From IMG/VR virus record IMGVR_UViG_3300002835_000018: DNA of 64,000 bases; one strand, 5' to 3'. Below are positions 1-11,014 of this stretch, in pieces. The notes beneath the pieces were generated by a model. The model was not told the DNA's origin, did no database searches, and saw only the letters and a list, made by a program, of their open reading frames with translations. Numbering within the stretch: the stretch's first letter is position 1; the number at the start of each line of letters is the position of its first letter. This DNA is from a virus. Made by a program: the position numbers and the translations under genes.

Positions 1-58
1 CTTTCCAACCGTTGATGATTTTGCTCTTGGGATAAGTCTTTTTGTTAGCAATCTTCAT
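1..58 (-). CDS. Partial early ORF running off the window edge (MKIANKKTYPKSKIINGWK...)
   Basis: GGAG RBS and ATG lie downstream of the promoter at 127-154; the frame is open to position 1. Confidence 0.55.
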   Translation of the reverse strand, partial: MKIANKKTYPKSKIINGWK

Positions 59-126
59 TGTCATACTCCATAGGGTAAAACCTTAATAATCCTCGGGAAA
101 AACTAACATTTGTTGTCCTGTGTAAC

Positions 127-154
127 TATTCGGGTATGTGCCATGATTATTTAG
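127..154 (-). promoter_or_regulatory. Early promoter copy 1 (TAAAT-N16-CGAATA)
   Basis: Plus strand TATTCG-16 nt-ATTTAG; one of 20 equally spaced, co-oriented copies. Confidence 0.85.
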
Positions 155-385
155 CCAAAAAAAGAAAATTCTTTCGCTAAATCTTTTGGGTGGTTGTGCG
201 AATGATTAAGTAGAAGCGTGAGGGATACGCAGTAAACCCGATCTGATGCAAGGGCTGAAGGTGTTATGAGTGCGGTACGACTATTTAAAAAAAGTAGTGT
301 GTAGCCAATACTCTGGCGAACCCGCTTGATGTTGGTAAGACAAGCAGGGAGATCATTTCTCAAGTCGCATCGTATTTCTTATACT
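155..385 (-). ncRNA. Putative structured ncRNA with its own promoter
   Basis: Lies behind promoter copy 2 with no RBS. It has several hairpins, one with a UCUUACCA loop and one with an AUCCCUC loop, and ends in a U-tract. Confidence 0.45.
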
Positions 386-389
386 ATCT

Positions 390-417
390 TATTCGTTTGA
401 CTGGCCGAATTATTTAG
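390..417 (-). promoter_or_regulatory. Early promoter copy 2
   Basis: TATTCG-16 nt-ATTTAG. Confidence 0.85.
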
Positions 418-419
418 GA

Positions 420-458
420 AGAAAATAAAAAAAACGCAGGATGCGGTGAAAGGGATTC
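420..458 (-). terminator. Intrinsic terminator after the DUF932-like gene
   Basis: Minus strand GCAGGGUGCGG-loop-CCGCAUCCUGC followed by GUUUUUUUU. Confidence 0.75.
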
Positions 459-558
459 CGCACCCTGCTGATGCTACTGGATAAGAGGTCGAAACCCAGT
501 AGCGTGATTTAGTAGAGGGGATAAGCTGCCCAGTTCCTACCCCCCCTTACAAACCATC

Positions 559-1692
559 TTAGGCGAACATAAGTTCTTTACCTAAGATAGAGTGTACATC
601 TTTGGTTGTCAAGGCGTTTGCCTTATTTCTCAACCCAATAAACTCATCTTCTGAGTAGCTTGCCAAAGCACCACCTACTTCGTTAAGCTTTTCCCAAGAT
701 GCTTCGCCCATGCGTTGACTTCCTCTTGTAAGGCTATTAACCATACCGAACAAAGTCTTGGCGTAGAATGGAGTCTCTTGGCGTTCAATATCCCAACCGC
801 CTTGAACAGCATCAATCTCATTCTTGCTAAACTTATAGGTTTGAGCTACAGAGGCAAACAGAGGGGTCATACTTGCACCTTCTCCGAATACCATCTTCTT
901 CGTACCTAATAGCTTATCAATCATCACAGGGATAGACTGAATGTGTTTGGCAATGCAAGACTGAATTTGATTAGCCAAGTGGCCAAGATCAACCTTGCCA
1001 CGATGCACTACACTTACATCGTCATGCCTTACCCAACCAATCATGCCATTAGAACAAATAGTCCTAAAGACTCCAGCAGAGATATCAAGCCTGTGAGTAC
1101 CAATCTCAGAGTTCTTGATCTTGATTAGACCACCGTAGTCGCTATCATCGTCAGAGCGAAGACTAGCAGGAAGAACTACGCTGAAGTTAATAAAATCATC
1201 GCCAGACTTATCACAAGCCACCGCCTGACCGCATTCTTGTGGCAAGAATTGCTTGGTTTGATCCAAGACCCAATTGTTATCGATGACTGCGTAACGATCA
1301 CTAAGGAACGCCCTGCAACTATCATCTTGATCATTGAATCTGAAAAGCATTTCCTTGCCGAAGTCTTCTTGGAAGGAGATATCTACCAAGTCTTTAAGAA
1401 TAGCTTGGTGCTTGACATTGTTGGAGTTATACAACTTGTTCAAGGTGAAACTACCCCACTTAGTCTTCGAAGCTAATTGACTAAGAAAGTGCTTGGTAGG
1501 TTTGTATAGCTTATTAGCTTGCCTATCCAAGATGTGGAACTTCTCATCTGCGATAACCGCTTTGACTTGAGGTTCCGCACCATTAACGGTGCAGAGTGCA
1601 TCGTGATAGTGGTTCTTGTTTTCGTTATAGCGATTAATAACGCCAGCATACGCACCACCAGTAAAGCCACGGACAGATTTAACAGCATTCAT
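559..1692 (-). CDS. DUF932/DUF945-like protein
   Basis: 377 aa with NSEIG...AGVFRTICSNGMI, resembling the NS..G...G.FR.VC.NG signature; AGGAG RBS. Confidence 0.7.
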   Translation of the reverse strand: MNAVKSVRGFTGGAYAGVINRYNENKNHYHDALCTVNGAEPQVKAVIADEKFHILDRQANKLYKPTKHFLSQLASKTKWGSFTLNKLYNSNNVKHQAILKDLVDISFQEDFGKEMLFRFNDQDDSCRAFLSDRYAVIDNNWVLDQTKQFLPQECGQAVACDKSGDDFINFSVVLPASLRSDDDSDYGGLIKIKNSEIGTHRLDISAGVFRTICSNGMIGWVRHDDVSVVHRGKVDLGHLANQIQSCIAKHIQSIPVMIDKLLGTKKMVFGEGASMTPLFASVAQTYKFSKNEIDAVQGGWDIERQETPFYAKTLFGMVNSLTRGSQRMGEASWEKLNEVGGALASYSEDEFIGLRNKANALTTKDVHSILGKELMFA

Positions 1693-1751
1693 TAGAAACT
1701 CCTTGTGACTGTGTCACTATAGTAAAAAAATTAAAACCCCTTACATTACTT

Positions 1752-1779
1752 CATTCGTACAACTACAACTTTTATTTAG
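1752..1779 (-). promoter_or_regulatory. Early promoter copy 3
   Basis: CATTCG-16 nt-ATTTAG; its -35 box contains the TAA stop of the upstream ORF. Confidence 0.8.
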
Positions 1780-1976
1780 GAACATTTAAGAAATCTTGGT
1801 TCTTTAGTTACAAGATTGCCATTCTTCCAAGTCTTGCCCATAGGCACTACTTGCCATTCTTGGCCATCTACTGTAAATGTACCGCCAAAGATTGACCATG
1901 CCCCCTCATCTTTGCTTTCTTGCCAAAGCTTTAACAGCTTAACTTTAGTATCTTCGCTCATGTTAGTTGTCTCCAT
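1776..1976 (-). CDS. Hypothetical protein
   Basis: 66-aa ORF overlapping the end of the upstream gene; stop falls in the next -35 box. Confidence 0.7.
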   Translation of the reverse strand: METTNMSEDTKVKLLKLWQESKDEGAWSIFGGTFTVDGQEWQVVPMGKTWKNGNLVTKEPRFLKCS

Positions 1977-2310
1977 AGTTATCCCCCCAAGTTACATAAC
2001 CATCGTTCTTTAACATTTGGAAGACTTCAGCATAATGGTAGTTGTGCCAATTGAAATCCATATCGCCACAAGCTTCAATATACTCTTCGTAAAGTTCGGT
2101 CATATCTATATGATCATATACTGAATCATAGATAGTACCCTTAAGAGCGACATTATCGCTATCAATTTTGCGAAGTGTCTCCAAACCGTACTTTCTCTCA
2201 AGTCTCTGCCCGAAGTGAACAGCAAGGCACTCTAAATCGCCCTCCTGTGGTTTTTCGTATGGCTTATCCTTGACCTCTGGTAAACACCCTAACTTATCAT
2301 TGCTCTTCAT
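1963..2310 (-). CDS. Hypothetical acidic protein (start revised to MKSNDK)
   Basis: The track start (2352) lies inside promoter copy 4; a GAGAGG RBS precedes the ATG at 2310. Confidence 0.75.
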   Translation of the reverse strand: MKSNDKLGCLPEVKDKPYEKPQEGDLECLAVHFGQRLERKYGLETLRKIDSDNVALKGTIYDSVYDHIDMTELYEEYIEACGDMDFNWHNYHYAEVFQMLKNDGYVTWGDNYGDN

Positions 2311-2333
2311 ATCGACCTCTCTTTCTATATACT

Positions 2334-2361
2334 TATTCGTTTCACACCCCAAAAGATTTAC
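2334..2361 (-). promoter_or_regulatory. Early promoter copy 4
   Basis: TATTCG-16 nt-ATTTAC. Confidence 0.85.
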
Positions 2362-2628
2362 CTATTTTGTAAAAATAAATAAAGCATCGTCACCTATCCA
2401 ACTACCAATCATATCCCCTTCCCATTTTAACTTTTCTGCAAACTGGCGAGCAGCAGCAGCAAAGTTTTCCTTATATTCCAACTCGTAATCCCAACCAATG
2501 GTCAGGTTAGGTTGACGATTTTGCATTTTACCGTTACCCAGTCTACACTTAAGGCGTTTGCCCTTTGTGTCGGTAATAGGTAGAACTTTCACAAAAATCG
2601 TAGCACCACCAACAAATTTAATAGTCAT
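2362..2628 (-). CDS. Hypothetical protein (start revised to MTIKFV)
   Basis: AAGGAGA RBS; the TAG stop abuts the next -35 box. Confidence 0.75.
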   Translation of the reverse strand: MTIKFVGGATIFVKVLPITDTKGKRLKCRLGNGKMQNRQPNLTIGWDYELEYKENFAAAARQFAEKLKWEGDMIGSWIGDDALFIFTK

Positions 2629-2649
2629 AACATTCTCCTTGTATATAGT

Positions 2650-2677
2650 TATTCGTTTCACACACCAAATTATTTAC
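2650..2677 (-). promoter_or_regulatory. Early promoter copy 5
   Basis: TATTCG-16 nt-ATTTAC; contains the upstream stop codon. Confidence 0.85.
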
Positions 2678-2814
2678 CGAAATCCAAACTTTTCTTTTAA
2701 TTCTTTGTACAGTAGATCGTACTCATCTTGCCTCATTAGGCTTGTTGCAAACAGTTTGTCCAGCCTATCAACTGCTCGCTCGAACTGGATTTCATTTCTT
2801 TCTTGCTCACTCAT
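2674..2814 (-). CDS. Small hypothetical protein, 46 aa (MSEQERNEIQFERAVDRLDK...), not in the ORF track
   Basis: Hand-translated; AAAGGGG RBS, own promoter, stop inside the next -35 box. Confidence 0.7.
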   Translation of the reverse strand: MSEQERNEIQFERAVDRLDKLFATSLMRQDEYDLLYKELKEKFGFR

Positions 2815-2856
2815 TTCTTTCCCCTTTGTTTATGTTACTTACTTCCCATGTATTTC

Positions 2857-2884
2857 TATTCGTATGAGTATGCTTTTTATTTAA
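2857..2884 (-). promoter_or_regulatory. Early promoter copy 6
   Basis: TATTCG-16 nt-ATTTAA. Confidence 0.85.
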
Positions 2885-2919
2885 TGGAATATGAAAAGAT
2901 TTTTAGTATTACCAAGTAT

Positions 2920-3042
2920 AACCAAAAAAGCAATGTGCGTTCCGCATCCCCGATCCCTCTCCCGATTCCAGAGAGGCGGGTTGTTTTATATCGGCCCTCC
3001 CGATTGTTTCAGATTTTTGATTCTTCCTCTCCTTTCTATATT
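2920..3042 (-). ncRNA. Putative G-rich sRNA, family A copy 1
   Basis: Behind promoter copy 7, with no start codon after the SD-like 5' end, 8 GGA motifs, hairpins and a U-tract; homologous to 5075-5188 and 6690-6765. Confidence 0.55.
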
Positions 3043-3046
3043 TATC

Positions 3047-3074
3047 TATTCGTGCGAGTGGGTTAATTATTTAG
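3047..3074 (-). promoter_or_regulatory. Early promoter copy 7
   Basis: TATTCG-16 nt-ATTTAG. Confidence 0.85.
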
Positions 3075-3107
3075 CCAAAATAAAAAAATATTTTAAATTT
3101 ATTTTAT

Positions 3108-3178
3108 AAGTCCAGCCCCCGCCCATCCCCGCTTTTTTAGCAGGAGGATTTTTAGGTTAATCCCCAACCTCTCTGTAT
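3108..3178 (-). ncRNA. Putative G-rich sRNA, family A copy 2 (short)
   Basis: Behind promoter copy 8; AGGUU-GGGGAUU-AACCU hairpin; shares GGGGAUG and CUGGACU with the other copies; no ORF. Confidence 0.45.
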
Positions 3179-3181
3179 ATC

Positions 3182-3209
3182 TATTCGTTTAAGATGCCAA
3201 ATTATTTAG
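3182..3209 (-). promoter_or_regulatory. Early promoter copy 8
   Basis: TATTCG-16 nt-ATTTAG. Confidence 0.85.
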
Positions 3210-3329
3210 AAAAATTTTTAAAATAAATGGTATAACAAAGTATAATTTTTGATTTTGATAGTGTTGATAATACACTTTTTGTTCATTGGAAAAGTGTGAA
3301 ACCAATTTCGAAATCTCTGAAGAATTCTC

Positions 3330-3359
3330 TTGACAGGTTTTTAACCCCATGTGTAAAAT
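3330..3359 (+). promoter_or_regulatory. Possible sigma70-type promoter, antisense to the early array
   Basis: TTGACA-18 nt-TAAAAT. Confidence 0.35.
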
Positions 3360-3474
3360 CGTCTTGCAGGGGGATATGTTTAACACATTTTAAAATCCTA
3401 TCTTATCTCCAAATAGGTTAAATACTATCTGCATTTGATAGAGTTCATAATTTGAGCAGAGAAATACATAAAGA

Positions 3475-3669
3475 CTAATCATTGTAACTTTCCTCCAAAG
3501 TAAAAAATTCTGGTACTGGTTCAAGTTCATGCTTACCAAAGTGGAGTTTAATCCACAATTCTTTGATGTCTGATTCTTTATAGAATGGGCCATCTTGTTT
3601 ATCTAAGCTTAGTATGATCAAAGCATGTTCAATCAATCGTTTTTCTTCTTTGGTTACATTAATAAGCAT
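3475..3669 (-). CDS. Hypothetical protein
   Basis: 64 aa; GGGAGG RBS; start overlaps the upstream stop. Confidence 0.7.
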   Translation of the reverse strand: MLINVTKEEKRLIEHALIILSLDKQDGPFYKESDIKELWIKLHFGKHELEPVPEFFTLEESYND

Positions 3670-3821
3670 TACATTACCTCCCTGCTAAGTTTTAGTTTTT
3701 CGCCCTGTCTACCACCTTTGGGAGACTTCTTCTTGCTCTTGAATACCACCATGCCCCTTGGAGTTTCCCCTCTGCGTTCAAAGGGGGTGTTTACCAATAC
3801 AAATCTGATAGTCCTGCTCAT
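3669..3821 (-). CDS. Small basic protein, 50 aa (MSRTIRFVLVNTPFERRGETPRGMVVFKSKKKSPKGGRQGEKLKLSREVM), not in the track
   Basis: Hand-translated; AAGGAGA RBS behind promoter copy 9. Confidence 0.7.
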   Translation of the reverse strand: MSRTIRFVLVNTPFERRGETPRGMVVFKSKKKSPKGGRQGEKLKLSREVM

Positions 3822-3844
3822 GTTACATTCTCCTTGTAAAGTTC

Positions 3845-3872
3845 TATTCGTTTAACCACACATTTAATTTAG
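3845..3872 (-). promoter_or_regulatory. Early promoter copy 9
   Basis: TATTCG-16 nt-ATTTAG; contains the upstream stop codon. Confidence 0.85.
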
Positions 3873-4210
3873 CGATCATACCTACTTGGTTTACGCATAG
3901 CATTGCCATTCTCATGAATGAAGTCATCGATACCTAACGCCTCTTCATTCTCCAACTCTCTTGCCTCAAGCATTTGGTGTAGTGCTTGGCAACCGTCTAA
4001 GATTCTGCAATGCAAATACTCAGGATATTTGCCATCTACTGTTTGTATCCAACCATGATCAAACTCTTCTTCGAAGCTGGTTACAACAAAGGTATTAGAC
4101 TTTGGGTTGTAGTTTACTCCGATTATGTAAGCATGGCCGTTGTTCAAGACTTCTGGCATATGCTTAAGAAACTCTGCGTACTCATGACATTCTAAAATCA
4201 AATCGTTCAT
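3869..4210 (-). CDS. Hypothetical protein
   Basis: 113 aa; AAAGGGG RBS. Confidence 0.75.
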   Translation of the reverse strand: MNDLILECHEYAEFLKHMPEVLNNGHAYIIGVNYNPKSNTFVVTSFEEEFDHGWIQTVDGKYPEYLHCRILDGCQALHQMLEARELENEEALGIDDFIHENGNAMRKPSRYDR

Positions 4211-4234
4211 AGCTAACCCCTTTCAAGGATTGTG

Positions 4235-4390
4235 TTACTCTTCGCCTTCCCAACCGTGACGATCCCAACCACCACAATTTTCGTTATCGTCATCATCTTC
4301 GGTATCATCGATTTCGCATCGCTCATCGTAGTTACCATCGAAACAATCTTCGAAAGACTCAAATTCCCACTCATCGTTAGTCCAGTCCAT
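4235..4390 (-). CDS. Very acidic 51-aa protein (MDWTNDEWEFESFEDCFDG...), not in the track
   Basis: Hand-translated; AAGGAG RBS behind promoter copy 10; 23 of 51 residues are D/E. Confidence 0.7.
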   Translation of the reverse strand: MDWTNDEWEFESFEDCFDGNYDERCEIDDTEDDDDNENCGGWDRHGWEGEE

Positions 4391-4426
4391 TTCCATCTCC
4401 TTGGTTAGTGTTACTTACTACTTACT

Positions 4427-4454
4427 TATTCGTATGACTATACTTTTTATTTAG
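4427..4454 (-). promoter_or_regulatory. Early promoter copy 10
   Basis: TATTCG-16 nt-ATTTAG. Confidence 0.85.
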
Positions 4455-4471
4455 AAAAATCTTTTTTATTT

Positions 4472-4669
4472 TTACCACCCTTGGCACTCTTCAGATCGAT
4501 CTTGAATGATCTTGCAATACTGTTGAGCTTCCTCAAGTGTCTTGAACTCTTCTTTAATCTCATCAAGTGTCATCGTTTCAACAATCCAATGACCACCCTC
4601 ATCATAATTATCCTTTGCCCAATTTAATATTTGTCTAGGTACTACCAATCTTTCATCAGGTATCCACAT
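4472..4669 (-). CDS. Hypothetical protein
   Basis: 65 aa; AAGGA RBS; own promoter. Confidence 0.75.
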   Translation of the reverse strand: MWIPDERLVVPRQILNWAKDNYDEGGHWIVETMTLDEIKEEFKTLEEAQQYCKIIQDRSEECQGW

Positions 4670-4709
4670 GGCACTTTTCCTTTTTGTTGGTGTTATCTTC
4701 CTGTAATCC

Positions 4710-4737
4710 TATTCGTACAACTATACTTTTTATTTAG
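4710..4737 (-). promoter_or_regulatory. Early promoter copy 11
   Basis: TATTCG-16 nt-ATTTAG; contains the upstream stop codon. Confidence 0.85.
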
Positions 4738-4952
4738 CTAACTTTTCGAGCAAATAAACTTTTCTCATCTCCGTTATTCGCCCAATCTGTTAAAACCCCT
4801 AAAGCACCAATCGAATCTAAGGCACTTCGAAGATGTCCAAAATAAATCTTAGCATCCTCAGTTCTTTGCCAATCCTCAGCTAGATAAGTATCAGCTAGAT
4901 TAGCTTGCTTAACCAATGTCATCAAAGTGTTTACTGTTGTTTCATAATCCAT
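4734..4952 (-). CDS. Hypothetical protein
   Basis: 72 aa; RBS; own promoter. Confidence 0.75.
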   Translation of the reverse strand: MDYETTVNTLMTLVKQANLADTYLAEDWQRTEDAKIYFGHLRSALDSIGALGVLTDWANNGDEKSLFARKVS

Positions 4953-5000
4953 TTTTCCATCCCCTTTGTTTTAGTTATCGTTACTGCTTCCGTACTATTC

Positions 5001-5028
5001 TATTCGTACAAGTAAGCTTTTTATTTAG
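5001..5028 (-). promoter_or_regulatory. Early promoter copy 12
   Basis: TATTCG-16 nt-ATTTAG. Confidence 0.85.
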
Positions 5029-5074
5029 TGAAATATAAAAATATTTTAGTAAAATTTTATTATACCAAATTAAA

Positions 5075-5188
5075 TCAGTCCAGGCTCCCCCCATCCCCCC
5101 TGGATTTTTTCCCAGATGGCAAGCTTATTTTTTATCGGCCCTTCCCGATTTTTTCAGATTTTTGTTTGTTTCCCTCCTTTCTATATAT
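5075..5188 (-). ncRNA. Putative G-rich sRNA, family A copy 3
   Basis: The 5' ~60 nt are nearly collinear with 2985-3042 (UAUAGAAAGGAG...CAAAAAUCUGAAA.AAUCGGGA.GGGCCGAUA); 7 GGA motifs; no ORF. Confidence 0.55.
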
Positions 5189-5191
5189 TTA

Positions 5192-5219
5192 TATTCGTGC
5201 AGGGCAGGCAATTATTTAG
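5192..5219 (-). promoter_or_regulatory. Early promoter copy 13
   Basis: TATTCG-16 nt-ATTTAG. Confidence 0.85.
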
Positions 5220-5239
5220 CAGAATTTTAAAAATATTTT

Positions 5240-5430
5240 AAAAAGATAATAGGATAAGAATATCCATTTTTGAATTTATTGGTAGTGGTAAGACATACAA
5301 TCTGGGCATACCGCAGCGAACCTCAGTGGTCTTGGTAAGACACCCTGAGCTTTTTTAAAAAGTCTGCTTTTTTCGTTTTCGGTATCTCACCGTGGTTTGC
5401 ACCTAAAAGCAGAAAACATACCGATCATTT
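5240..5430 (-). ncRNA. Structured element (family B) with a multi-stem junction or pseudoknot
   Basis: Two UGUCUUACCA motifs, a 9-bp stem, a GCAA tetraloop hairpin, a 7-bp crossing pairing and the conserved GGAUA/UAUCC end. Confidence 0.45.
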
Positions 5431-5461
5431 TAACTTAATACATTTTGTTTACCTCTTGTTG

Positions 5462-5707
5462 TTATATATAGTTATTCGTACTAGGGCAGTTATTATTTAG
5501 GTAATAGTTCCAAGTTTTTACAAAATCTGTATGCAAGTATCTAAAACATGTTTGGGCAATGTTTCGGTATCCTGCAATTTTTGCAACAACCTTGATTCTT
5601 TTCATATCGCATACCTTGCAATATTCTTTATTGAACACATTACCATCATCATCGGTATCTTGCCCTAGCCTATGCCATTTATTGTGATTACAATTCTTCA
5701 CTATCAT
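5462..5707 (-). CDS. Small CxH...CxxC (putative Zn-binding) protein
   Basis: AGGAGG RBS before MIVKNCNH; YCKVCD motif. Confidence 0.6.
   Translation of the reverse strand: MIVKNCNHNKWHRLGQDTDDDGNVFNKEYCKVCDMKRIKVVAKIAGYRNIAQTCFRYLHTDFVKTWNYYLNNNCPSTNNYI
5473..5500 (-). promoter_or_regulatory. Early promoter copy 14
   Basis: TATTCG-16 nt-ATTTAG, inside the 3' end of the upstream ORF. Confidence 0.8.
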
Positions 5708-5849
5708 CATCATCCTCCTGTTCAATGTCGTATTCTTTCCAAGAATCATTTTGCGAATCTTTCCACGCCCCAAACAAACTTGATTTATATTCAATTACTT
5801 TTTGCTCAAAAGTTAGTTCGGGATAAAACCAAGTATAGTATGAACACAT
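5688..5849 (-). CDS. 53-aa protein with an acidic tail (MCSYYTWFYPELTFEQKV...EQEDDDDSEEL), not in the track
   Basis: Hand-translated; AAGGGGG RBS directly after the gp88-like stop. Confidence 0.6.
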   Translation of the reverse strand: MCSYYTWFYPELTFEQKVIEYKSSLFGAWKDSQNDSWKEYDIEQEDDDDSEEL

Positions 5850-5861
5850 TTTACTTCCCCC

Positions 5862-6563
5862 TTAGTGGTATATGTATGCTACATTTTTGTAATCTTTATC
5901 CCAACACTTGCGACAATCGTCACAATTAACTTTAGCTTCACCGTTGAATGATCTTAAGCTTGCAGGGCAAACATTCTCATGTCGAATATCTGCATTAACT
6001 GGTGTGCTTATTACTGTACTAGTTGGCAAGCCTAGTCCACTACTTGGAACTTGATCTACCATAAACATACTTGCACGAACAATAAGGTTAGCAGGAAATT
6101 CACCGTATAGAGATTGATACTCACGAATCATGCCATGTTCTTTACTGGGTAGCCAGAACTTGATTTCTGGTACTGCTTTAGCTATGTTAGCTATTGCAAG
6201 CAGCATATCTACCGATTGTAAATCCCCACTAGTGAACCATCGAAAATATCTTTTCTCTTGCTTAAGTCTCTTAAGCTTACCTTGGAAGTATTCGATAAAA
6301 GAATCTTGCCAGTCTTGTAAACTTCCCCCTATTTGTTCCATTCTTGCTAGATCGGCTTTTTTCTTACTGCCGAAGATATATCTACCCTTAAGGGCATAAC
6401 AACCGTTACAGATACTACCTTTAACCTTTACTAACTTACTGCCTGTTTGACATAGCCATGCAGGTAAGTCCCAACTTTCCCAAGGCATTTTTTCCGTTTG
6501 CGAAGTCTTGATCGTTATCCTATTTGGTTTAACATCGTCAATCGTTTGCAATTCCATTCTCAT
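5862..6563 (-). CDS. gp88-like (phage gene product 88 family, radical-SAM-related) protein
   Basis: LPAWLC...SICNGCYA, YFRWFTSGD, WLPSKE and a C-terminal CPA...CDDCRKCW; start revised to MRMELQ (AAGGA RBS). Confidence 0.7.
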   Translation of the reverse strand: MRMELQTIDDVKPNRITIKTSQTEKMPWESWDLPAWLCQTGSKLVKVKGSICNGCYALKGRYIFGSKKKADLARMEQIGGSLQDWQDSFIEYFQGKLKRLKQEKRYFRWFTSGDLQSVDMLLAIANIAKAVPEIKFWLPSKEHGMIREYQSLYGEFPANLIVRASMFMVDQVPSSGLGLPTSTVISTPVNADIRHENVCPASLRSFNGEAKVNCDDCRKCWDKDYKNVAYIYH

Positions 6564-6606
6564 CTTACTTTCCTTTTCCTTAGTGTTAGTTATCCTCATG
6601 CTATCT

Positions 6607-6634
6607 TATTCGTTTAACTATGATTTTTATTTAA
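6607..6634 (-). promoter_or_regulatory. Early promoter copy 15
   Basis: TATTCG-16 nt-ATTTAA. Confidence 0.85.
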
Positions 6635-6689
6635 TAGAATATAGAATTATTTTAAATATATTTTGTTATACTATGTTATATCCATAAAG

Positions 6690-6765
6690 CTATAGGCGTT
6701 CCGCATCCCCTATTCCATACTCATTTGCATGGCGGGTTAAGCATTACCCTCAAGCTTCCTTATAT
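6690..6765 (-). ncRNA. Putative G-rich sRNA, family A copy 4
   Basis: Shares AACCCGCC and GGGGAUGCGGAACGC exactly with copy 1; own promoter; no ORF. Confidence 0.5.
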
Positions 6766-6770
6766 TATAT

Positions 6771-6798
6771 TATTCGTTTATGTACCGATTTTATTTAG
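6771..6798 (-). promoter_or_regulatory. Early promoter copy 16
   Basis: TATTCG-16 nt-ATTTAG. Confidence 0.85.
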
Positions 6799-6866
6799 TA
6801 GAATTTTAAAAATAATTTAAAAAGATAATTGGATAAACATGTCCTATTTCGAACTTGTTAATATGG

Positions 6867-6921
6867 GTAATACTTCGTATTACTTTTCAAGCTTGACAGC
6901 TTAGGTAATACTCCGTATTAC
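6867..6921. repeat. Two perfect palindromes GTAATAC-N3-GTATTAC, 38 nt apart
   Basis: Located at 6867-6883 and 6905-6921, each followed by a T-run on the plus strand. Confidence 0.85.
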
Positions 6922-6929
6922 TTTTTTTT

Positions 6930-6987
6930 GGCCTAAAGGCCCGGCTCACCATCTTGCGATGGCAAGCCATTGCCAGCCTTACGGCTA
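6930..6987 (-). other. Run of three hairpins, two with GNRA loops on the minus strand
   Basis: UAGCC-GUAA-GGCUG, GGCUUGCCAUC-GCAA-GAUGGUGAGCC and GGCC-UUUA-GGCC. Confidence 0.7.
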
Positions 6988-7053
6988 CTATTCAATGTTA
7001 CATACCATTATGGTAACAATGTAAGCAACTAAAGCAGATACCATCATTAGCAT
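6988..7053 (-). CDS. 21-aa hydrophobic peptide (MLMMVSALVAYIVTIMVCNIE)
   Basis: GGAGA RBS; starts 1 nt after the upstream stop. Confidence 0.5.
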   Translation of the reverse strand: MLMMVSALVAYIVTIMVCNIE

Positions 7054-7054
7054 G

Positions 7055-7126
7055 TTAGTATTCTCCAAATAGCACTATAAGTAATCCTACAAACACACCG
7101 GCTATTGCACCTATCATTGCTTCCAT
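7055..7126 (-). CDS. 23-aa hydrophobic peptide (MEAMIGAIAGVFVGLLIVLFGEY)
   Basis: AGGAGG RBS; TAATG stop/start overlap. Confidence 0.6.
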   Translation of the reverse strand: MEAMIGAIAGVFVGLLIVLFGEY

Positions 7127-7227
7127 TATTCGCCCCTCCTGTTATATTCTGGTGGCTTATTGATATAAACAACCATTTGCCAAAAACAGATACAATAAAC
7201 AATAAATCCGATTGTAGCTACTATCAT
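7126..7227 (-). CDS. 33-aa single-TM peptide (MIVATIGFIVYCICFWQMVVYINKPPEYNRRGE)
   Basis: ATGA overlap with the upstream gene; AAGGAAGG RBS. Confidence 0.55.
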   Translation of the reverse strand: MIVATIGFIVYCICFWQMVVYINKPPEYNRRGE

Positions 7228-7424
7228 CTTGACACCTTCCTTCCTTGTAATTCTTTACGATATATCGATATTTGATCTACATACTTGCCATAGGTATCAA
7301 TCCCATTGGCTATACATTCTTGGCAATCAGCTATACTAGCTATTAGCCCTGCAATTGACATTCTCTTAGCCTTGACTATCTCAGTCTCCCAATTGCATAT
7401 GTAAGGATTATATGTATTAAACAT
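7224..7424 (-). CDS. Hypothetical protein
   Basis: 66 aa; AAGGAGAG RBS. Confidence 0.75.
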   Translation of the reverse strand: MFNTYNPYICNWETEIVKAKRMSIAGLIASIADCQECIANGIDTYGKYVDQISIYRKELQGRKVSR

Positions 7425-7566
7425 TCGACTCTCCTTGTGTTAGAATATCCCAATCTACTACTATCGGTGTATCTTCGCATTCTAGCGTGATACTAGGCTC
7501 CCATGCCTCATAACTACCATCTCCCATATCTTCCCAAATAATCATCTCACAATCGTCACTGTCCAT
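7417..7566 (-). CDS. Acidic 49-aa protein (MDSDDCEMIIWEDMGDGSYEAWEP...), not in the track
   Basis: AAGGAGAG RBS behind promoter copy 17; 15 D/E and no K/R. Confidence 0.65.
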   Translation of the reverse strand: MDSDDCEMIIWEDMGDGSYEAWEPSITLECEDTPIVVDWDILTQGESNV

Positions 7567-7603
7567 CGTACTCTCCTTGTTAGTGTTACCTTACCTATAT
7601 ACT

Positions 7604-7631
7604 TATTCGTTTGCCCCCTGCTTTTATTTAG
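7604..7631 (-). promoter_or_regulatory. Early promoter copy 17
   Basis: TATTCG-16 nt-ATTTAG. Confidence 0.85.
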
Positions 7632-7661
7632 GAAAAAACAGGAAAAACTTTTTTTATTTTA

Positions 7662-7913
7662 TTAATCGTGGATTACTCCATCGACTATGTATTTGAGAGA
7701 ATAAGCCGATATCGTTTTTTCTCCATGATGATTACCTTCATTGTACGATACTAAAATATAGTATCCATTTTTAGACTTAGCTATTCGTTCTAGTGTACCG
7801 AATCTAAAACCGTCTACTTTACTATCCGCTTGACTATACTTGTTTATCGATATTTTCTTACCGATATTTTCAGCGAATACACCACTTACCGTACCGTTCT
7901 CAATCTTAATCAT
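7662..7913 (-). CDS. Hypothetical protein
   Basis: 83 aa; AAGGA RBS; own promoter. Confidence 0.7.
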   Translation of the reverse strand: MIKIENGTVSGVFAENIGKKISINKYSQADSKVDGFRFGTLERIAKSKNGYYILVSYNEGNHHGEKTISAYSLKYIVDGVIHD

Positions 7914-7988
7914 TTTACTATCCTTGTGCTAAACTATTGTGATAGTGCTTAATTAGGTGACTATCTTAACCTTGCCCGCCTATCTATC

Positions 7989-8016
7989 TATTCGTTTGAT
8001 AGGCTAAATTATTTAG
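7989..8016 (-). promoter_or_regulatory. Early promoter copy 18
   Basis: TATTCG-16 nt-ATTTAG; contains the upstream stop codon. Confidence 0.85.
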
Positions 8017-8255
8017 TAAGATTCTAAATTATTTTCATATTCTTCCCTAAGACATTCTTCAGCTTCGAATCGTGCAATCATATTTTTCTCCATTGCGATA
8101 AAAGCTTGTGCCTCTCTCTCACTATCTACTGTATTGACTAATGTCGCTAAAATCCTCTTGCTTAATCTTGTGCCATTTTTGAATGTCGTTACAAGTTCAA
8201 TCTTTTCATCCCAAATATCGTACTGGCCTTGGCTATTGCTATTGTATACTAACAT
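8013..8255 (-). CDS. Hypothetical protein
   Basis: 80 aa; AAGGA RBS; own promoter. Confidence 0.75.
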   Translation of the reverse strand: MLVYNSNSQGQYDIWDEKIELVTTFKNGTRLSKRILATLVNTVDSEREAQAFIAMEKNMIARFEAEECLREEYENNLESY

Positions 8256-8314
8256 CGTTTCTTTCCTTGTTTTAATCCCTTAAGGTATAACTCATTGTTT
8301 CCCTTATGCTATTC

Positions 8315-8342
8315 TATTCGCTTAAGCCCATTAATTATTTAG
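8315..8342 (-). promoter_or_regulatory. Early promoter copy 19
   Basis: TATTCG-16 nt-ATTTAG. Confidence 0.85.
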
Positions 8343-8496
8343 TAGAATTTAAAAAGTATTTAAAATAATTTTAAAAAGATAATAGGATAAATATATCCAA
8401 TTTTGAATGGGTATGATTAGGTAATACAATCGGCCCGAACTTAGCCAAACTCCATAGCTTCCCTAAGCCCGCCAGTTTAGGTAATACTGGCAAGTT

Positions 8497-8523
8497 AAAA
8501 TTTGAGGGGAGATCTCTCTCCCC
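8497..8523 (-). terminator. Hairpin/terminator after the sigma gene
   Basis: GGGGAGA-GAGA-UCUCCCC followed by UCAAAUUUU (weak U-tract). Confidence 0.5.
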
Positions 8524-8543
8524 CCCTATCTTTCCTATCTTAC

Positions 8544-9038
8544 TTAATCCTCCCTCTTGAAAGCGTCTTTGAGTTCATTCCAAATTTGGCTTATTCTACC
8601 TTCTGATAATTCCAATTCCTTAGCAATCTCTTGATTAGTAAAGCGACAAGCTTTCATGATAATGATATTGTATTCTTGCAAGGTAATCATAGCATCGTCA
8701 AGCAATTCTTGGGCTTGCGTTTGAACTTGTGCTACTAGATCTTCACTAGTGTTAATAGGATCTTGAATCTTACCTAGACTATCTTCACAAGATAGGGAAG
8801 TAGTGTTTTTTCTTACATATTTCTTGCGAAGTTCATCATTAAGCTTATTCTTATAAACTACCCAAATAAACTTTTCAAAGCTAACATCCGATTGGCTACG
8901 GTCAAAGGTAATATAAGCACTTCCAACAACATCGTGGGCAAGTTCGCTTGCTTGCGACTGATTAAGCTTTTTTGAAGCTACTGCAATCAGCTTAGAAGTT
9001 ACTAGGTTAACATCGCAACCGAAAACTGAATTATCCAT
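8544..9038 (-). CDS. Sigma-70 family (ECF-sized) sigma factor
   Basis: Region 2-like ASELAHDV...FDRSQSDVSFEKFIWVVYKNKLNDELRK and region 4 HTH TNQEIAKELELSEGRISQI; the start is probably one of the ATGs at 9038-9047. Confidence 0.8.
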   Translation of the reverse strand: MDNSVFGCDVNLVTSKLIAVASKKLNQSQASELAHDVVGSAYITFDRSQSDVSFEKFIWVVYKNKLNDELRKKYVRKNTTSLSCEDSLGKIQDPINTSEDLVAQVQTQAQELLDDAMITLQEYNIIIMKACRFTNQEIAKELELSEGRISQIWNELKDAFKRED

Positions 9039-9104
9039 AATCATCATCCTTGTAAAAAGTTTAGTAACTGAGAAGTTCAATTACCATAATATCATTCTAA
9101 TATC

Positions 9105-9132
9105 TATTCGGAATAAGTCTAGATTAATTTAA
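9105..9132 (-). promoter_or_regulatory. Early promoter copy 20 (drives the sigma gene)
   Basis: TATTCG-16 nt-ATTTAA. Confidence 0.85.
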
Positions 9133-9315
9133 GTTAATTTTAAAATATTCCCAAAGTTTGTCATTGTGGCAGGTGACGGGTTTTCCGTCTGTCATATTGG
9201 CGGGGTTTTTTCAAATTGACTGCCATTCTGGCAGGGGGTGTCCAAACCCGGGGGCATGTACACTTAACAAGCCAACTATTATAAAAATGTACTACCCATT
9301 CTAGGCAAATCGGCC

Positions 9316-9501
9316 CTAAAGTTTCTTCTTTCTTCGACCAATTTTGCGTTTTACTTCGGGCATCATGTTGCGAATTGTAGCTACACAAATATCTATAAGG
9401 AGTACTTTCCTCAAGGTGTCAACCATTTCTTGAAGTGACATTCGGTAATAGTTCTTGAGTATGAAATCGCAGATAACTTTTTTGGTAGATTTGTCAATCA
9501 T
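9316..9501 (-). CDS. Small basic HTH-like protein
   Basis: FILKNYYRMSLQEMVDTL resembles the N-terminus of ORF 10992; overlaps the upstream gene's stop. Confidence 0.5.
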   Translation of the reverse strand: MIDKSTKKVICDFILKNYYRMSLQEMVDTLRKVLLIDICVATIRNMMPEVKRKIGRRKKKL

Positions 9502-10249
9502 TTGGTTTACTCGCCCACTGGTCAAACTTGTCTTGTGGTATGAACTCTGTTGTTTCGCATTTCGCCCAACTCATAAATTGTTTGTTTACTAATAGGTAAG
9601 CCTTCGGCTTACTCTCAAAACATCTGCTAGCCCAATAAAATCCAGAGAAGGATGAAACCAAAAGAGAAAGCTTAGGCATCAATGTCGAAATTTGCCTTCG
9701 ATTGAATTCGCCCATATCTACAATCTTCGCTTTGCTCGATGGATAGTTGCCATTGCACAACCATAAAATGTGGTAGTCTTTGCAGTATTTTTTTACTATC
9801 TTATCGCCAAAGTGTTTATCTATATAGCTTTGATGACTTGAAAAATGTGATTCGACCCCAAGCAATGGTTTATCATTAAATCGCCCTACAAATTCTTCTG
9901 CCCAATCTAATTCTTCTTTTGTTGGAAAAAAAGCAGGACCATCTTTTATATAATCATACCCATGTCTTTTTAGGTGCATAGGAACTCTTGCATCTAATTG
10001 ATTAACCTGAGCCGGTATTCCACTTATGGTCGTGTCTATTATTTTATATTTTTCCTCTCTGGCAAAAGCATGAGCAGAGGGGTTATCCATATAGATAAGC
10101 TTTTTAACATTGGGCATGTTTAATAGAGCACAATCAAACTTTCTACTTGTGCATACAATTATTTCTGCATCTCTTATTTGAGATATTGCACCGGCGGAAC
10201 AAAGATTATCTCCAAACCGTTCATAAGCTTGGACTAGCAATTTTTCCAT
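9494..10249 (-). CDS. Glycosyltransferase, GT9/heptosyltransferase-like
   Basis: N-terminal RFGDNLCSAGAISQIR and C-terminal LLVSSFSGFYWAS fit the GT9 pattern. Confidence 0.6.
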   Translation of the reverse strand: MEKLLVQAYERFGDNLCSAGAISQIRDAEIIVCTSRKFDCALLNMPNVKKLIYMDNPSAHAFAREEKYKIIDTTISGIPAQVNQLDARVPMHLKRHGYDYIKDGPAFFPTKEELDWAEEFVGRFNDKPLLGVESHFSSHQSYIDKHFGDKIVKKYCKDYHILWLCNGNYPSSKAKIVDMGEFNRRQISTLMPKLSLLVSSFSGFYWASRCFESKPKAYLLVNKQFMSWAKCETTEFIPQDKFDQWASKPND

Positions 10250-10251
10250 AA

Positions 10252-10270
10252 TGTATTATAATTAATACAC
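10252..10270. promoter_or_regulatory. Bidirectional late-type promoter palindrome TGTATTA-TAAT-TAATACA
   Basis: Sits in the 35-nt gap between divergent genes; each strand carries a near copy of the late box. Confidence 0.6.
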
Positions 10271-10284
10271 AGGAGAAATCAATA

Positions 10285-10479
10285 ATGAATACGCCACAAA
10301 AGATAGAGACAGAATTAAGAATAGTTGCTCACGGAGATATTTTAACTCCAATTGAGCCAGATCCTTCTGAGGATGAAGCATTAATTAGGATAGTCGCAAA
10401 CACTAGTTCTTTGGAAACTAAAACAAATGATCTATCCTCACGGACTGACGGAAAAGCAAGTGATGACGGCAATGGATAA
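10285..10479 (+). CDS. Hypothetical protein
   Basis: 64 aa; AGGAG RBS. Confidence 0.6.
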   Translation: MNTPQKIETELRIVAHGDILTPIEPDPSEDEALIRIVANTSSLETKTNDLSSRTDGKASDDGNG

Positions 10480-11014
10480 GGCAATCGCCCTCCTTGCTAC
10501 AACATTTATGTTTGGTTATTATGATAGTGATGACATAAGACAAGAAGCTTATATTTTTGGTTTAGAAGCTTTACCTCGTTATGACCCATCTCGCCCACTG
10601 GAAAATTTCTTGTACACGCACATAAGAAATCGGCTAATAAATTTCAAGCGTGACAAATACCATCGCACAGACTCTCCCTGCAAAATCTGTTCAGAACACG
10701 GTAGGCATCCAGATGGCTCAGTTTGCCAGAAGTACATCTCTTGGAAAAGAAGAAACTCATCTAAGCAAAACTTGATGCGACCACAAGATATACAGAACAC
10801 TGATGATACAGAAAAGGCTATGAGACTAAATCAATCTGTTGTAGATGATGCAAACATAGCTGAATGTTTAGAGCTTATAGATAATAATCTAGATGTTGAA
10901 CTTAGATCAACTTATATTAGAATGAAGAATGGCGAACCAGTGCCAAAAGCCAAAAGATTTAAAATAGAAGAATCAATTAAGGAGATTATAAGTGGCAGGA
11001 AAAAGGCTGAATAA
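10427..11014 (+). CDS. Sigma-70 family factor (region 2 plus Cys/His insert, no clear region 4); candidate late sigma
   Basis: DDIRQEAYIFGLEALPRYDPSRPLENFLYTHIRNRLINFKRD; CKIC..H..H....C insert. Confidence 0.8.
   Translation: MIYPHGLTEKQVMTAMDKAIALLATTFMFGYYDSDDIRQEAYIFGLEALPRYDPSRPLENFLYTHIRNRLINFKRDKYHRTDSPCKICSEHGRHPDGSVCQKYISWKRRNSSKQNLMRPQDIQNTDDTEKAMRLNQSVVDDANIAECLELIDNNLDVELRSTYIRMKNGEPVPKAKRFKIEESIKEIISGRKKAE

What the first reader, a model, noticed from the sequence alone, without database searches (positions are those of the whole stretch)
127..9132. Array of 20 identical-geometry promoter cassettes, with stop codons fused to the next -35 box
Seen: the minus-strand motif (C/G/T)TAAAT-N16-CGAAT(A) occurs 20 times in 9 kb (127, 390, 1752, 2334, 2650, 2857, 3047, 3182, 3845, 4427, 4710, 5001, 5192, 5473, 6607, 6771, 7604, 7989, 8315, 9105). 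All copies have the same orientation and a spacer of exactly 16 nt, and I saw none after 9.13 kb. In five units the upstream gene's TAA stop is the TAA of the next -35 box (1776, 2674, 3869, 4734, 8013), and a sixth stop abuts it (2362). Spacers of distant copies are near-identical (tacaactacaactttt / tacaactatacttttt / tatgactatacttttt), and a leader like GTAACACTAACAAGGAG recurs. Inference: each gene is a self-contained promoter-RBS-ORF cassette, gained, lost or shuffled by recombination at the promoter, like an integron without an integrase. The nearest known precedent is the repeated early-promoter (PeSL) elements of T4-like phages, but the motif and the stop-codon fusion differ.
Basis: partly seen in the sequence, partly recalled or inferred. 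Interest (0 to 1): 0.85.

Follow-up and report, generated by a model that had tools for sequence, protein, structure and literature searches.

The report
Phage sigma-factor promoter array, mosaic genes
An uncultured lake phage expresses about twenty small early genes and RNAs from repeated copies of one two-part promoter that its own small sigma factor most likely reads; it is a clear new example of known phage strategies, not a new kind of system.

Summary
TAAAT-N16-CGAAT occurs 20 times on the minus strand between 127 and 9131, against 0.19 expected. All copies share one orientation, and five upstream stop codons lie inside the first box.

The window is a freshwater siphophage-like genome. 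The array is its leftward early arm and runs off the window's left end. Its first gene (8544-9044) is a two-domain sigma factor of ECF architecture. The motif (TAAA-N17-CGA) has the boxes and spacing of sigma-28/FliA and PvdS promoters.

Across relatives, every genome whose sigma has the helix GRISQIW carries xTAAAT boxes (103:0). Every genome with a GSAHG helix carries xTGAAT at the same sites (79:1). This holds although single genes are exchanged freely between the two groups.

I read the motif as a private promoter of the phage sigma (about 0.7; inferred, no start sites mapped).

The cassette idea is partly right. The arm is a gene-by-gene mosaic, and homology breaks cluster within 80 nt of promoters. 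One deletion crosses over inside two promoter copies. Breaks are not enriched in the core motif, gene order is largely conserved, six units have no ORF, and nothing is integron-like.

This scan has found similar arrays on other phage DNA.

The parts
9105..9131 (-). P1, the promoter copy in front of the sigma gene. It is a deviant version (TTAAAT-N16-CCGAATA).
   Evidence: Conserved in close relatives.
8544..9044 (-). Phage sigma factor, two domains (sigma2 + sigma4), 164-166 aa. The start is at 9044 or 9038. It is the first gene of the array.
   Evidence: TIGR02937 scores 46.0 bits against a cut-off of 42.9, over residues 19-161. The AF2 model has two helical domains and a disordered linker. 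Foldseek's best hits are ECF sigmas, with weak E-values. The sigma4 helix LSEGRISQIW resembles WhiG LTEGRISQIL.
8315..8341 (-). P2, followed by an 80-aa ORFan (8013-8255).
7989..8015 (-). P3, followed by an 83-aa ORFan (7662-7913). The TAA of the box is the stop of the upstream ORF.
7604..7630 (-). P4, followed by a small operon of 49-, 66- and 33-aa ORFs (7566-7126).
6771..6797 (-). P5, followed by an ORF-less unit (6634-6771).
   Evidence: Fold z-score -2.9.
6607..6633 (-). P6, followed by the GP88-family gene (5862-6563) and one more ORF.
   Evidence: (PF17338, E = 5e-23).
5473..5499 (-). P7, followed by the two-codon mini-ORF ATG-TAT-TAA (5435-5443) and about 200 nt of non-coding sequence.
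   Evidence: The mini-ORF is conserved in both clades.
5192..5218 (-). P8, followed by an ORF-less structured RNA unit (5028-5192).
5001..5027 (-). P9, followed by a 72-aa ORFan (4734-4952).
   Evidence: This gene is absent from L010.
4710..4736 (-). P10, followed by a 65-aa ORFan (4472-4669). The TAA of the box is the upstream stop.
   Evidence: The unit is absent from L001, with the crossover inside the promoter, and absent from the RNA-library contigs.
4427..4453 (-). P11, followed by 53-aa and 113-aa ORFs (4374-3869).
3845..3871 (-). P12, followed by 50-, 64-, 30- and 65-aa ORFs. The TAA of the box is the upstream stop.
3182..3208 (-). P13, followed by an ORF-less unit (3074-3182).
3047..3073 (-). 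P14, followed by an ORF-less structured RNA unit (2884-3047), a paralogue of the P8 unit.
   Evidence: repeat D8. Compensatory changes.
2857..2883 (-). P15, followed by a 46-aa ORF (2674-2814).
2650..2676 (-). P16 (GTAAAT variant), followed by an 88-aa ORF (2362-2628). The TAA of the box is the upstream stop.
   Evidence: The orthologue in clade B is GTGAAT.
2334..2360 (-). P17 (GTAAAT variant), followed by 115-aa and 66-aa ORFs. The upstream TAG abuts the box.
1752..1778 (-). P18 (CGAATG variant), followed by the DUF932 gene (559-1692). The TAA of the box is the upstream stop.
390..416 (-). P19, preceded by the only clear intrinsic terminator in the array (about 430-470). The unit it drives has no ORF.
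127..153 (-). P20, followed by an ORF that starts at 58 and runs off the window.
   Evidence: L010 shows a 129-aa gene here.
178..203 (+). A 21st copy in the opposite orientation. It is back-to-back with P20 and convergent with P19, so it is a candidate antisense promoter.
   Evidence: The same site is on the opposite strand in L010, and in clade B it carries the clade's own TGAAT box (G001 7987-8013 +).
9094..9164 (-). Candidate host-type (sigma-70-like) ignition promoters for the sigma gene: ATGACA-N16-TAAAAT (9164-9137) and TAGACT-N16-TAGAAT (9121-9094).
   Evidence: The second aligns with a near-consensus TTGACT-N16-TATAAT in L021. Inferred only.

Best explanation
The repeats are promoters of a phage-private transcription circuit.

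1. After injection, host RNA polymerase with its primary sigma transcribes the first gene of the leftward arm, a minimal two-domain sigma factor (8544-9044), from weak host-type promoters around 9094-9164. This step is inferred.
2. The phage sigma then binds host core polymerase and directs it to more than 20 copies of the promoter cTAAATAA-N14-ACGAATA. Sigma4 reads xTAAAT and sigma2 reads CGAATA. Transcription probably starts at the conserved A about 8 nt further on. This step is also inferred.
3. The result is simultaneous expression of about 30 small ORFan genes and at least four to six small structured RNAs. The copy P1 in front of the sigma gene gives positive feedback.
4. A second sigma-like gene (10427-11014) and a different box serve the rightward late genes.

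The promoter, its AT-rich upstream tract and its leader are the only sequences shared between otherwise unrelated neighbouring genes. They therefore act as homology patches. Ordinary homologous recombination within and between co-circulating phages deletes, inserts and swaps single genes there. This produces a gene-by-gene mosaic, while selection keeps every promoter matched to the resident sigma.

The stop codons inside the first box come from tight packing and from the two in-frame TAAs that the box contains.
For: What the sequence and tools show:
- 20 same-strand copies against 0.19 expected.
- 14 of the 20 copies lie 21-75 nt upstream of an SD-ATG (P20 read).
- The two boxes are fixed, the spacer varies, and the upstream tract is 82% A+T.
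- Sigma-70-type promoters are not enriched in the arm: 37 found, 37.1 expected.
- The first gene passes the sigma70-ECF superfamily model and folds as sigma2 + linker + sigma4.
- The motif equals TAAA-N17-CGA. That is the geometry of the sigma-28 consensus TAAAGTTT-n11-GCCGATAA (PMC2859248; PMC8325347) and of the PvdS box TAAAT-N16-CGT (PMC2235872).
- The sigma4 helix resembles that of WhiG.

Co-variation:
- Genomes whose sigma has the GRISQIW helix (57-93% identical to the window's) carry 103 TAAAT and 0 TGAAT copies.
- Genomes with the GSAHG helix (26-30% identical) carry 79 TGAAT and 1 TAAAT.
- The change is in situ at orthologous promoters, for example GTAAAT against GTGAAT with the same leader.
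- The prediction that two newly fetched lineages with a GRISQIW sigma would carry TAAAT held.
- Promoter type stays pure although single genes cross between the groups. Gene 7662-7913 is 96% identical to the clade-B copy but 71% to L001.

Distribution and recombination:
- In the complete 141.8-kb clade-B genome, 22 of 25 copies lie in one 14-kb arm next to the sigma gene, and the control pattern gives 0.
Against: - No transcription start, polymerase binding or expression timing has been measured. The RNA libraries are held only as contigs, which cannot show starts and may contain DNA.
- The two sigma/box types amount to one evolutionary switch, so the co-variation is a single event even though many promoters carry it.
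- The TAAA / CGA boxes resemble sigma-28 promoters, so a host FliA-type sigma could read the clade-A version.
- The host is unknown.
- Structural matches to solved sigmas are weak (best Foldseek E = 5e-3, TM about 0.4).
- Homology breaks are not enriched inside the 28-nt core. The promoter may mark gene borders rather than cause the recombination.
Confidence: 0.7

Rival explanations
1. The motif is a promoter read by a host alternative sigma factor (a sigma-28/FliA-type or a host ECF sigma). The phage sigma would then serve other targets.
For: The boxes and spacing match the sigma-28 consensus and the PvdS box (PMC2859248, PMC2235872).
Against: Clade B lacks TAAA in all 79 copies yet keeps the array and the CGAATA box. 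Box type follows the phage's own sigma4 helix despite frequent gene exchange between the clades. Every relative whose fetched locus spans the head of the array has the sigma gene there.
Confidence: 0.15
2. The mosaic arises from ordinary recombination at gene borders plus selection. The promoter copies are bystanders and not the recombination substrate.
For: Breaks are not enriched inside the core motif (13 observed, 10-13 expected). One junction lies at a start codon. One inter-clade exchange covers only the ORF and its SD (window 7925-7643). Backbone order is conserved.
Against: Breaks are enriched within 80 nt of promoters even against a null matched for coding and non-coding position (109 against 76, p < 0.0005). 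One deletion has its crossover within 18 nt shared by P10 and P11, and that joint recurs in two RNA-library assemblies. Longer repeated modules lie upstream of P2, P5 and P8 (D5).
Confidence: 0.35
3. An integron-like, site-specific cassette system that uses the motif as its recombination site.
For: Cassette-like units in a single orientation, with presence or absence varying between relatives.
Against: No integrase or other recombinase appeared among about 30 ORFs tested against Pfam or PHROGs. The motif is not an inverted repeat. Every unit has its own promoter. Junctions are scattered.
Confidence: 0.02
4. The motif is not a promoter. It could be an operator for a DNA-binding protein, or a packaging or replication signal.
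For: No start sites have been mapped.
Against: The motif sits at a fixed distance and orientation in front of SD-ATG. It has a two-box architecture with a variable spacer of exact length, an AT-rich upstream tract, and a match to known sigma promoter geometry.
Confidence: 0.04

Closest known systems
PeSLs (promoter-early stem-loops) of T4-type phages RB49 and phi1 (Arbiol et al. 2010, PMC2839356)
   Same: Both have many copies of one strong promoter with an AT-rich upstream tract, placed in front of ORFans in a hyperplastic arm. In both, the upstream stop codon lies at the start of the module and SD-ATG at its end. Recombination between copies deletes and swaps genes.
   Different: PeSL promoters match the host sigma-70 consensus and include a stem-loop terminator. 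Here the boxes are TAAAT / CGAATA, a phage sigma is the likely reader, and only 2-3 of 20 copies follow a terminator-like hairpin. Mini-circles were not tested.
Phage-encoded minimal sigma factors with private promoters: phage 7-11 gp47 (GTAAtg-N16-aCTA) and phiEco32 gp36 (PMC8948821)
   Same: In both cases a small phage sigma binds host core polymerase, and a two-box promoter with a 16-nt spacer is repeated in the phage genome. Related phages differ in promoter type.
   Different: Those sigmas drive eight late (7-11) or middle/late (phiEco32) promoters, and this has been shown biochemically. Here more than 20 copies head an early-arm array of ORFans and RNAs, and nothing has been shown biochemically. 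No sequence match to cultured phages was found.
Sigma-28 (FliA/WhiG/SigD) promoter class, TAAAGTTT-n11-GCCGATAA (PMC2859248, PMC8325347)
   Same: The first box is TAAA, 17 nt separate TAAA from CGA, and CGA forms the core of the second box. The sigma4 helix is similar to that of WhiG.
   Different: The second box is aACGAATA, not GCCGATAA. The phage protein has no sigma3 region and scores 21 bits against a cut-off of 190 on the FliA/WhiG model. Clade B uses TGAAT.
PvdS iron-starvation box of Pseudomonas, TAAAT-N16-CGT (PMC2235872)
   Same: The first box and the spacer length are identical, and the second box starts with CG. PvdS is an ECF-type reader.
   Different: The resemblance is in the motif only. 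No relationship between the proteins was tested or implied.
T7, T3 and SP6 RNA polymerases with their promoters (own knowledge, not checked here)
   Same: Sister phages carry many promoter copies that differ at one or two specificity positions, matched to changes in the protein that reads them.
   Different: Those phages use single-subunit polymerases and one continuous promoter, not a sigma factor with two boxes.
Integrons
   Same: Arrays of small cassettes in one orientation, whose content varies.
   Different: Integrons have an integrase, attC inverted repeats, one common promoter and promoterless cassettes. None of these applies here.

Membership tests
Sigma-70 family, two-domain (ECF-architecture) sigma factor: protein 8544-9044 | Sigma2 and sigma4 domains joined by a linker, with no sigma1.1 or sigma3 | tested here: met
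   TIGR02937 scores 46.0 bits (cut-off 42.9) over residues 19-161 of 166. The AF2 model has helices 12-80 and 99-164 with a disordered stretch at 80-98. The top Foldseek hits are sigmaE, SigL and SigH, with weak E-values.
Sigma-70 family, two-domain (ECF-architecture) sigma factor: protein 8544-9044 | Binds core RNA polymerase and initiates at cognate promoters | not testable with these tools
   Needs biochemistry.
Sigma-70 family, two-domain (ECF-architecture) sigma factor: protein 8544-9044 | Cognate promoter with two boxes, a rigid 16-17 nt spacer, and CG at the start of the second box | tested here: met
   All 20 copies have exactly 16 nt between TAAAT and CGAAT.
Sigma-28 / FliA-WhiG class (protein and promoter) | Protein belongs to the FliA/WhiG subfamily, with sigma2, sigma3 and sigma4 | tested here: not met
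   TIGR02479 scores 21.4 bits against a cut-off of 189.6, and only sigma4 aligns. The protein is 166 aa long.
Sigma-28 / FliA-WhiG class (protein and promoter) | Promoter TAAA-N15-GCCGATAA | tested here: inconclusive
   TAAA, the spacing and CGA match. GC before the box and TAA after it do not (consensus aACGAATA). Clade B has TGAA instead.
PeSL regulatory cassettes | Promoter matching the host sigma-70 consensus | tested here: not met
   The boxes are cTAAAT / CGAATA. The sigma-70 scan shows no enrichment in the arm (37 against 37.1).
PeSL regulatory cassettes | Stem-loop terminator within the module | tested here: not met
   A terminator-like hairpin followed by a T-run lies within 110 nt upstream of only 3 of 20 promoters, and only the one before P19 is clear.
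PeSL regulatory cassettes | Concentrated in a hyperplastic region in front of ORFans | tested here: met
   22 of 25 copies lie in one 14-kb arm of a complete 141.8-kb genome. Most ORFs have no Pfam or PHROG match.
PeSL regulatory cassettes | Recombination between copies causes insertions, deletions and replacements | tested here: met
   There is one clean crossover inside P10/P11, and the same joint occurs in two RNA-library assemblies. Breaks are enriched within 80 nt of promoters but not inside the core.
PeSL regulatory cassettes | Excised mini-circles | not testable with these tools
   Only contigs of four RNA runs were laid, and these showed no back-joints. Raw DNA reads are needed.
Integron | Tyrosine-recombinase integrase next to the array | tested here: not met
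   No recombinase family was found among the ORFs tested in the window and in L010. Not every small ORF was scanned.
Integron | attC-type imperfect inverted repeats, and promoterless cassettes behind one common promoter | tested here: not met
   The motif is asymmetric and has two boxes. Each unit has its own copy.
Phage-private sigma/promoter regulon (phiEco32 gp36, 7-11 gp47 type) | A phage-encoded sigma plus a conserved motif that is repeated in the phage and changes together with the sigma in relatives | tested here: met
   The counts are 103:0 and 1:79.
Phage-private sigma/promoter regulon (phiEco32 gp36, 7-11 gp47 type) | Sequence homology to gp36 or gp47 | tested here: not met
   tblastn of the sigma against 50,697 phage records found no match at E <= 1e-3. 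The gp79-dependent complex 9m7y_F is only rank 18 in Foldseek, with E = 0.09.

The most novel reading that the evidence does not exclude
The one-base switch in the first box (xTAAAT against xTGAAT at more than 20 orthologous promoters), together with replacement of the sigma4 helix, may be an adaptive 'orthogonalisation'. Two co-circulating phage lineages still exchange ORFs freely but cannot use each other's sigma. Each would then keep private control of its early arm during co-infection. The promoter modules would serve both as expression signals and as the recombination linkers that let ORFs, but not promoters, cross the boundary.
Probability: 0.2. Interest if true: 0.6.

Novelty: new member of a known kind. 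Interest (0 to 1): 0.4.

Why it matters
This is a clean natural pair of sigma/promoter variants. They differ at a single diagnostic base in the first box across about 100 and about 80 promoter instances, in phages that otherwise exchange genes.

That makes it a ready test case for how sigma4 reads the -35 element, and a source of orthogonal parts for synthetic circuits.

It also extends the PeSL idea, in which promoter modules act as linkers for gene shuffling, from host-sigma-70 promoters in T4-type phages to a phage-private sigma regulon in an uncultured freshwater siphophage.

It does not reveal a new mechanism.

Tried and rejected
- No whole genome is held for the window. I used a complete relative, G001, for the genome-wide count instead.
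- Megablast of 1-12000 against cultured phages found nothing. tblastn of the sigma also found nothing. The terminase and DUF932 genes hit only distant Bacillus phages at 23-29%. The host stays unknown.
- Rfam found no family in 1-12000 at E <= 1. No tRNAs were found.
- Pfam and PHROGs gave almost nothing for the cassette ORFs.
I used the search for homologous proteins and the look-up of encoding contigs instead.
- The RNA evidence does not help. Four river and estuary metatranscriptome runs hold 11-17% of the sampled words, but only as contigs. They cannot show starts, ends, strand or level, and they may include DNA. I draw no expression claim from them and use only the structural joint 4419/4710.
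- Foldseek against PDB gave no match below E = 1e-3. I treat it as supportive only.
- The idea that the arm is driven by sigma-70-type promoters is rejected (37 found, 37.1 expected).
- The integron reading is rejected.
- The recurring GTAACACTAACAAGGAG leader is only weakly repeated.

Full report
**1. Observation**

The pattern TAAAT-N16-CGAAT occurs 21 times in the window against 0.19 expected. One is on the plus strand at 178-203.

With CGAATA and one mismatch allowed, only one more hit appears in the other 55 kb.

The five stop-codon fusions and the abutting sixth are correct.

The extended consensus has four parts:
- an AT-rich tract (82% A+T);
- cTAAATAA;
- a spacer with one conserved T;
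- aaACGAATA, followed by a conserved A about 8 nt downstream.

Fourteen copies lie 21-75 nt upstream of an SD-ATG. Six are followed by no ORF before the next copy (P20 read).

**2. Context**

The window is part of a large tailed phage. It holds the following genes:
- large terminase, 13245-15389;
- a 2,769-aa collagen-like fibre;
- a 4,984-aa tape-measure protein.

Late genes run rightwards from about 10.4 kb. The array is the leftward arm.

No whole genome is held for the window. Relatives show that the arm continues beyond the window's left end, with at least 9 further copies in L010.

A complete relative of 141,809 bp with terminal repeats has 25 exact copies of its own motif version. Twenty-two lie in one 14-kb arm that ends at the sigma gene, and the control pattern gives none.

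The DNA occurs in lake and freshwater metagenomes. No cultured relative was found.

**3. The reader of the motif**

The first gene of the arm (8544-9044) passes the sigma70-ECF superfamily model over nearly its whole length. It is predicted as two helical domains joined by a disordered linker. Its best, though weak, structural matches are ECF sigma factors in initiation complexes.

Its sigma4 helix LSEGRISQIW resembles WhiG LTEGRISQIL.

The motif can be written as TAAA-N17-CGA. That is the geometry of two known promoter classes:
- the flagellar sigma-28 consensus TAAAGTTT-n11-GCCGATAA (PMC2859248; PMC8325347);
- the PvdS box TAAAT-N16-CGT (PMC2235872).

Sigma-70-type promoters are not enriched in the arm.

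**4. Co-variation**

IMG/VR and metagenome relatives fall into two groups.

| Sigma4 helix | Identity to the window's sigma | Genomes | First box |
|---|---|---|---|
| GRISQIW | 57-93% | window, L001, L017, L019, L020 | xTAAAT |
| GSAHG | 26-30% | L008, L009, L011, L014, L016 | xTGAAT |

The second box, ACGAATA, is unchanged in both groups.

The counts on the array strand are 103:0 in the first group and 1:79 in the second.

The change is in situ. Orthologous promoters keep their spacer and leader, for example GTAAAT against GTGAAT in front of the same gene.

I predicted that two newly fetched GRISQIW lineages would carry TAAAT, and they do.

Single genes cross between the two groups. Gene 7662-7913 is 96% identical to the clade-B copy but 71% to L001. 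The DUF932 gene is 93-96% identical everywhere, while sigma identity ranges from 26% to 93%. Promoter type stays pure despite this recombination, which argues that box and sigma are functionally coupled.

This remains one evolutionary switch, and no biochemistry exists.

**5. Ignition**

Two weak sigma-70-like promoters lie upstream of the sigma gene. One aligns with a near-consensus TTGACT-N16-TATAAT in relative L021.

P1 itself is a deviant copy (TTAAAT...CCGAATA). That fits positive feedback. Both points are inferred.

**6. The cassette hypothesis**

Gene-family strings show a conserved backbone order with single units present, absent or replaced.

I collected 184 de-duplicated ends of homology blocks among close relatives:

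| Position of block end | Observed | Uniform null | Coding-matched null | p |
|---|---|---|---|---|
| Within 80 nt of a promoter | 109 | 65 | 76 | < 0.0005 |
| Inside the 28-nt core | 13 | 10 | 13 | not significant |

Three junctions could be placed at nucleotide resolution:
- **Inside the promoter.** L001 lacks window 4710-4454, with the crossover in the 18 nt shared by P10 and P11. The same joint appears in contigs of two RNA libraries.
- **At a start codon.** L010 joins the P9 leader and its ATG directly to gene 4669-4472.
- **Around one ORF.** The inter-clade exchange of gene 7662-7913 covers only the SD and the ORF.

The promoter modules are therefore preferred borders and sometimes the substrate of recombination. 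They are not specific recombination sites.

No recombinase was found.

Terminator-like hairpins precede only 2-3 promoters, so the modules are not PeSLs in the strict sense.

**7. Comparison and verdict**

The system works like two described strategies combined:
- a phage-encoded minimal sigma with private promoters, as in 7-11 gp47 and phiEco32 gp36 (PMC8948821);
- promoter modules that mediate modular shuffling in a hyperplastic arm, as in PeSLs (PMC2839356).

Earlier notes of this scan describe several comparable arrays on other phage DNA (unchecked by me).

I class it as a new member of a known kind. Its distinctive feature is the clean one-base specificity switch at more than 20 orthologous promoters between sister lineages.

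Noticed in passing
window 178-203 (+), between P20 (127-153) and P19 (390-416): One promoter copy points the other way. It is back-to-back with P20 and convergent with the ORF-less P19 transcript, so the two RNAs would overlap as a sense/antisense pair. The site is kept in L010 and in clade B, where it carries the clade's own TGAAT box (G001 7987-8013 +).
   Followed up: partly
window 2884-3047, 5028-5192, 3074-3182, 6634-6771 (-): ORF-less units behind P14, P8, P13 and P5 are conserved across both clades. They show compensatory changes in two stems (ATCGG/CCGAT against ATCTG/CAGAT; CTCTC/GAGAG against TTACC/GGTAA) and an SD-like AAAGGAG near the 5' end. They look like structured small RNAs.
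   Followed up: partly
window 5435-5443 (-), behind P7: A two-codon mini-ORF, ATG-TAT-TAA, with a strong Shine-Dalgarno site is conserved in clades A and B. About 200 nt of non-coding sequence follows it, containing GTCTTACCAA...GGTTCGC, a motif that recurs behind P19.
   Followed up: no
window 9159-9234 (-), upstream of the sigma gene: There are three copies of gCCAnAATGrCAg, one of them a perfect palindrome (CTGCCAGAATGGCAG, 9220-9234). The number of copies varies among close relatives. They are candidate operator sites that control sigma expression.
   Followed up: no
window 10427-11014 (+) and 15367, 18230, 21780, 40056, 42984 (+): A second sigma-like gene (region 2 only, PF04542) heads the late genes. 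The box GGTGTAWTWWT occurs 5 times on the + strand against 0.49 expected. In the complete clade-B genome it occurs 3 times forward and once in reverse.
   Followed up: partly
window 5212-5294, 6791-6873, 8345-8427: An 83-nt repeat (72-81% identical) lies just upstream of P8, P5 and P2. It gives longer homology patches than the promoter itself.
   Followed up: no
L009:17398-17425; L010 (one copy): These are rare promoters of the 'wrong' type. One CTAAAT copy sits in a genome with a GSAHG-type sigma, and one TGAAT copy sits in L010, which is otherwise all TAAAT. They may be recent imports across the clade boundary.
   Followed up: no
window 9494-10249 (-): A 251-aa ORF with no family match lies between the two sigma genes, behind a sigma-70-like promoter (TTGATT-N16-TATAAT, 10282-10255). 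It is absent from this position in clade B, where the two sigma genes are about 570 nt apart, with a 77-aa ORF and about 350 nt of intergenic sequence between them.
   Followed up: no
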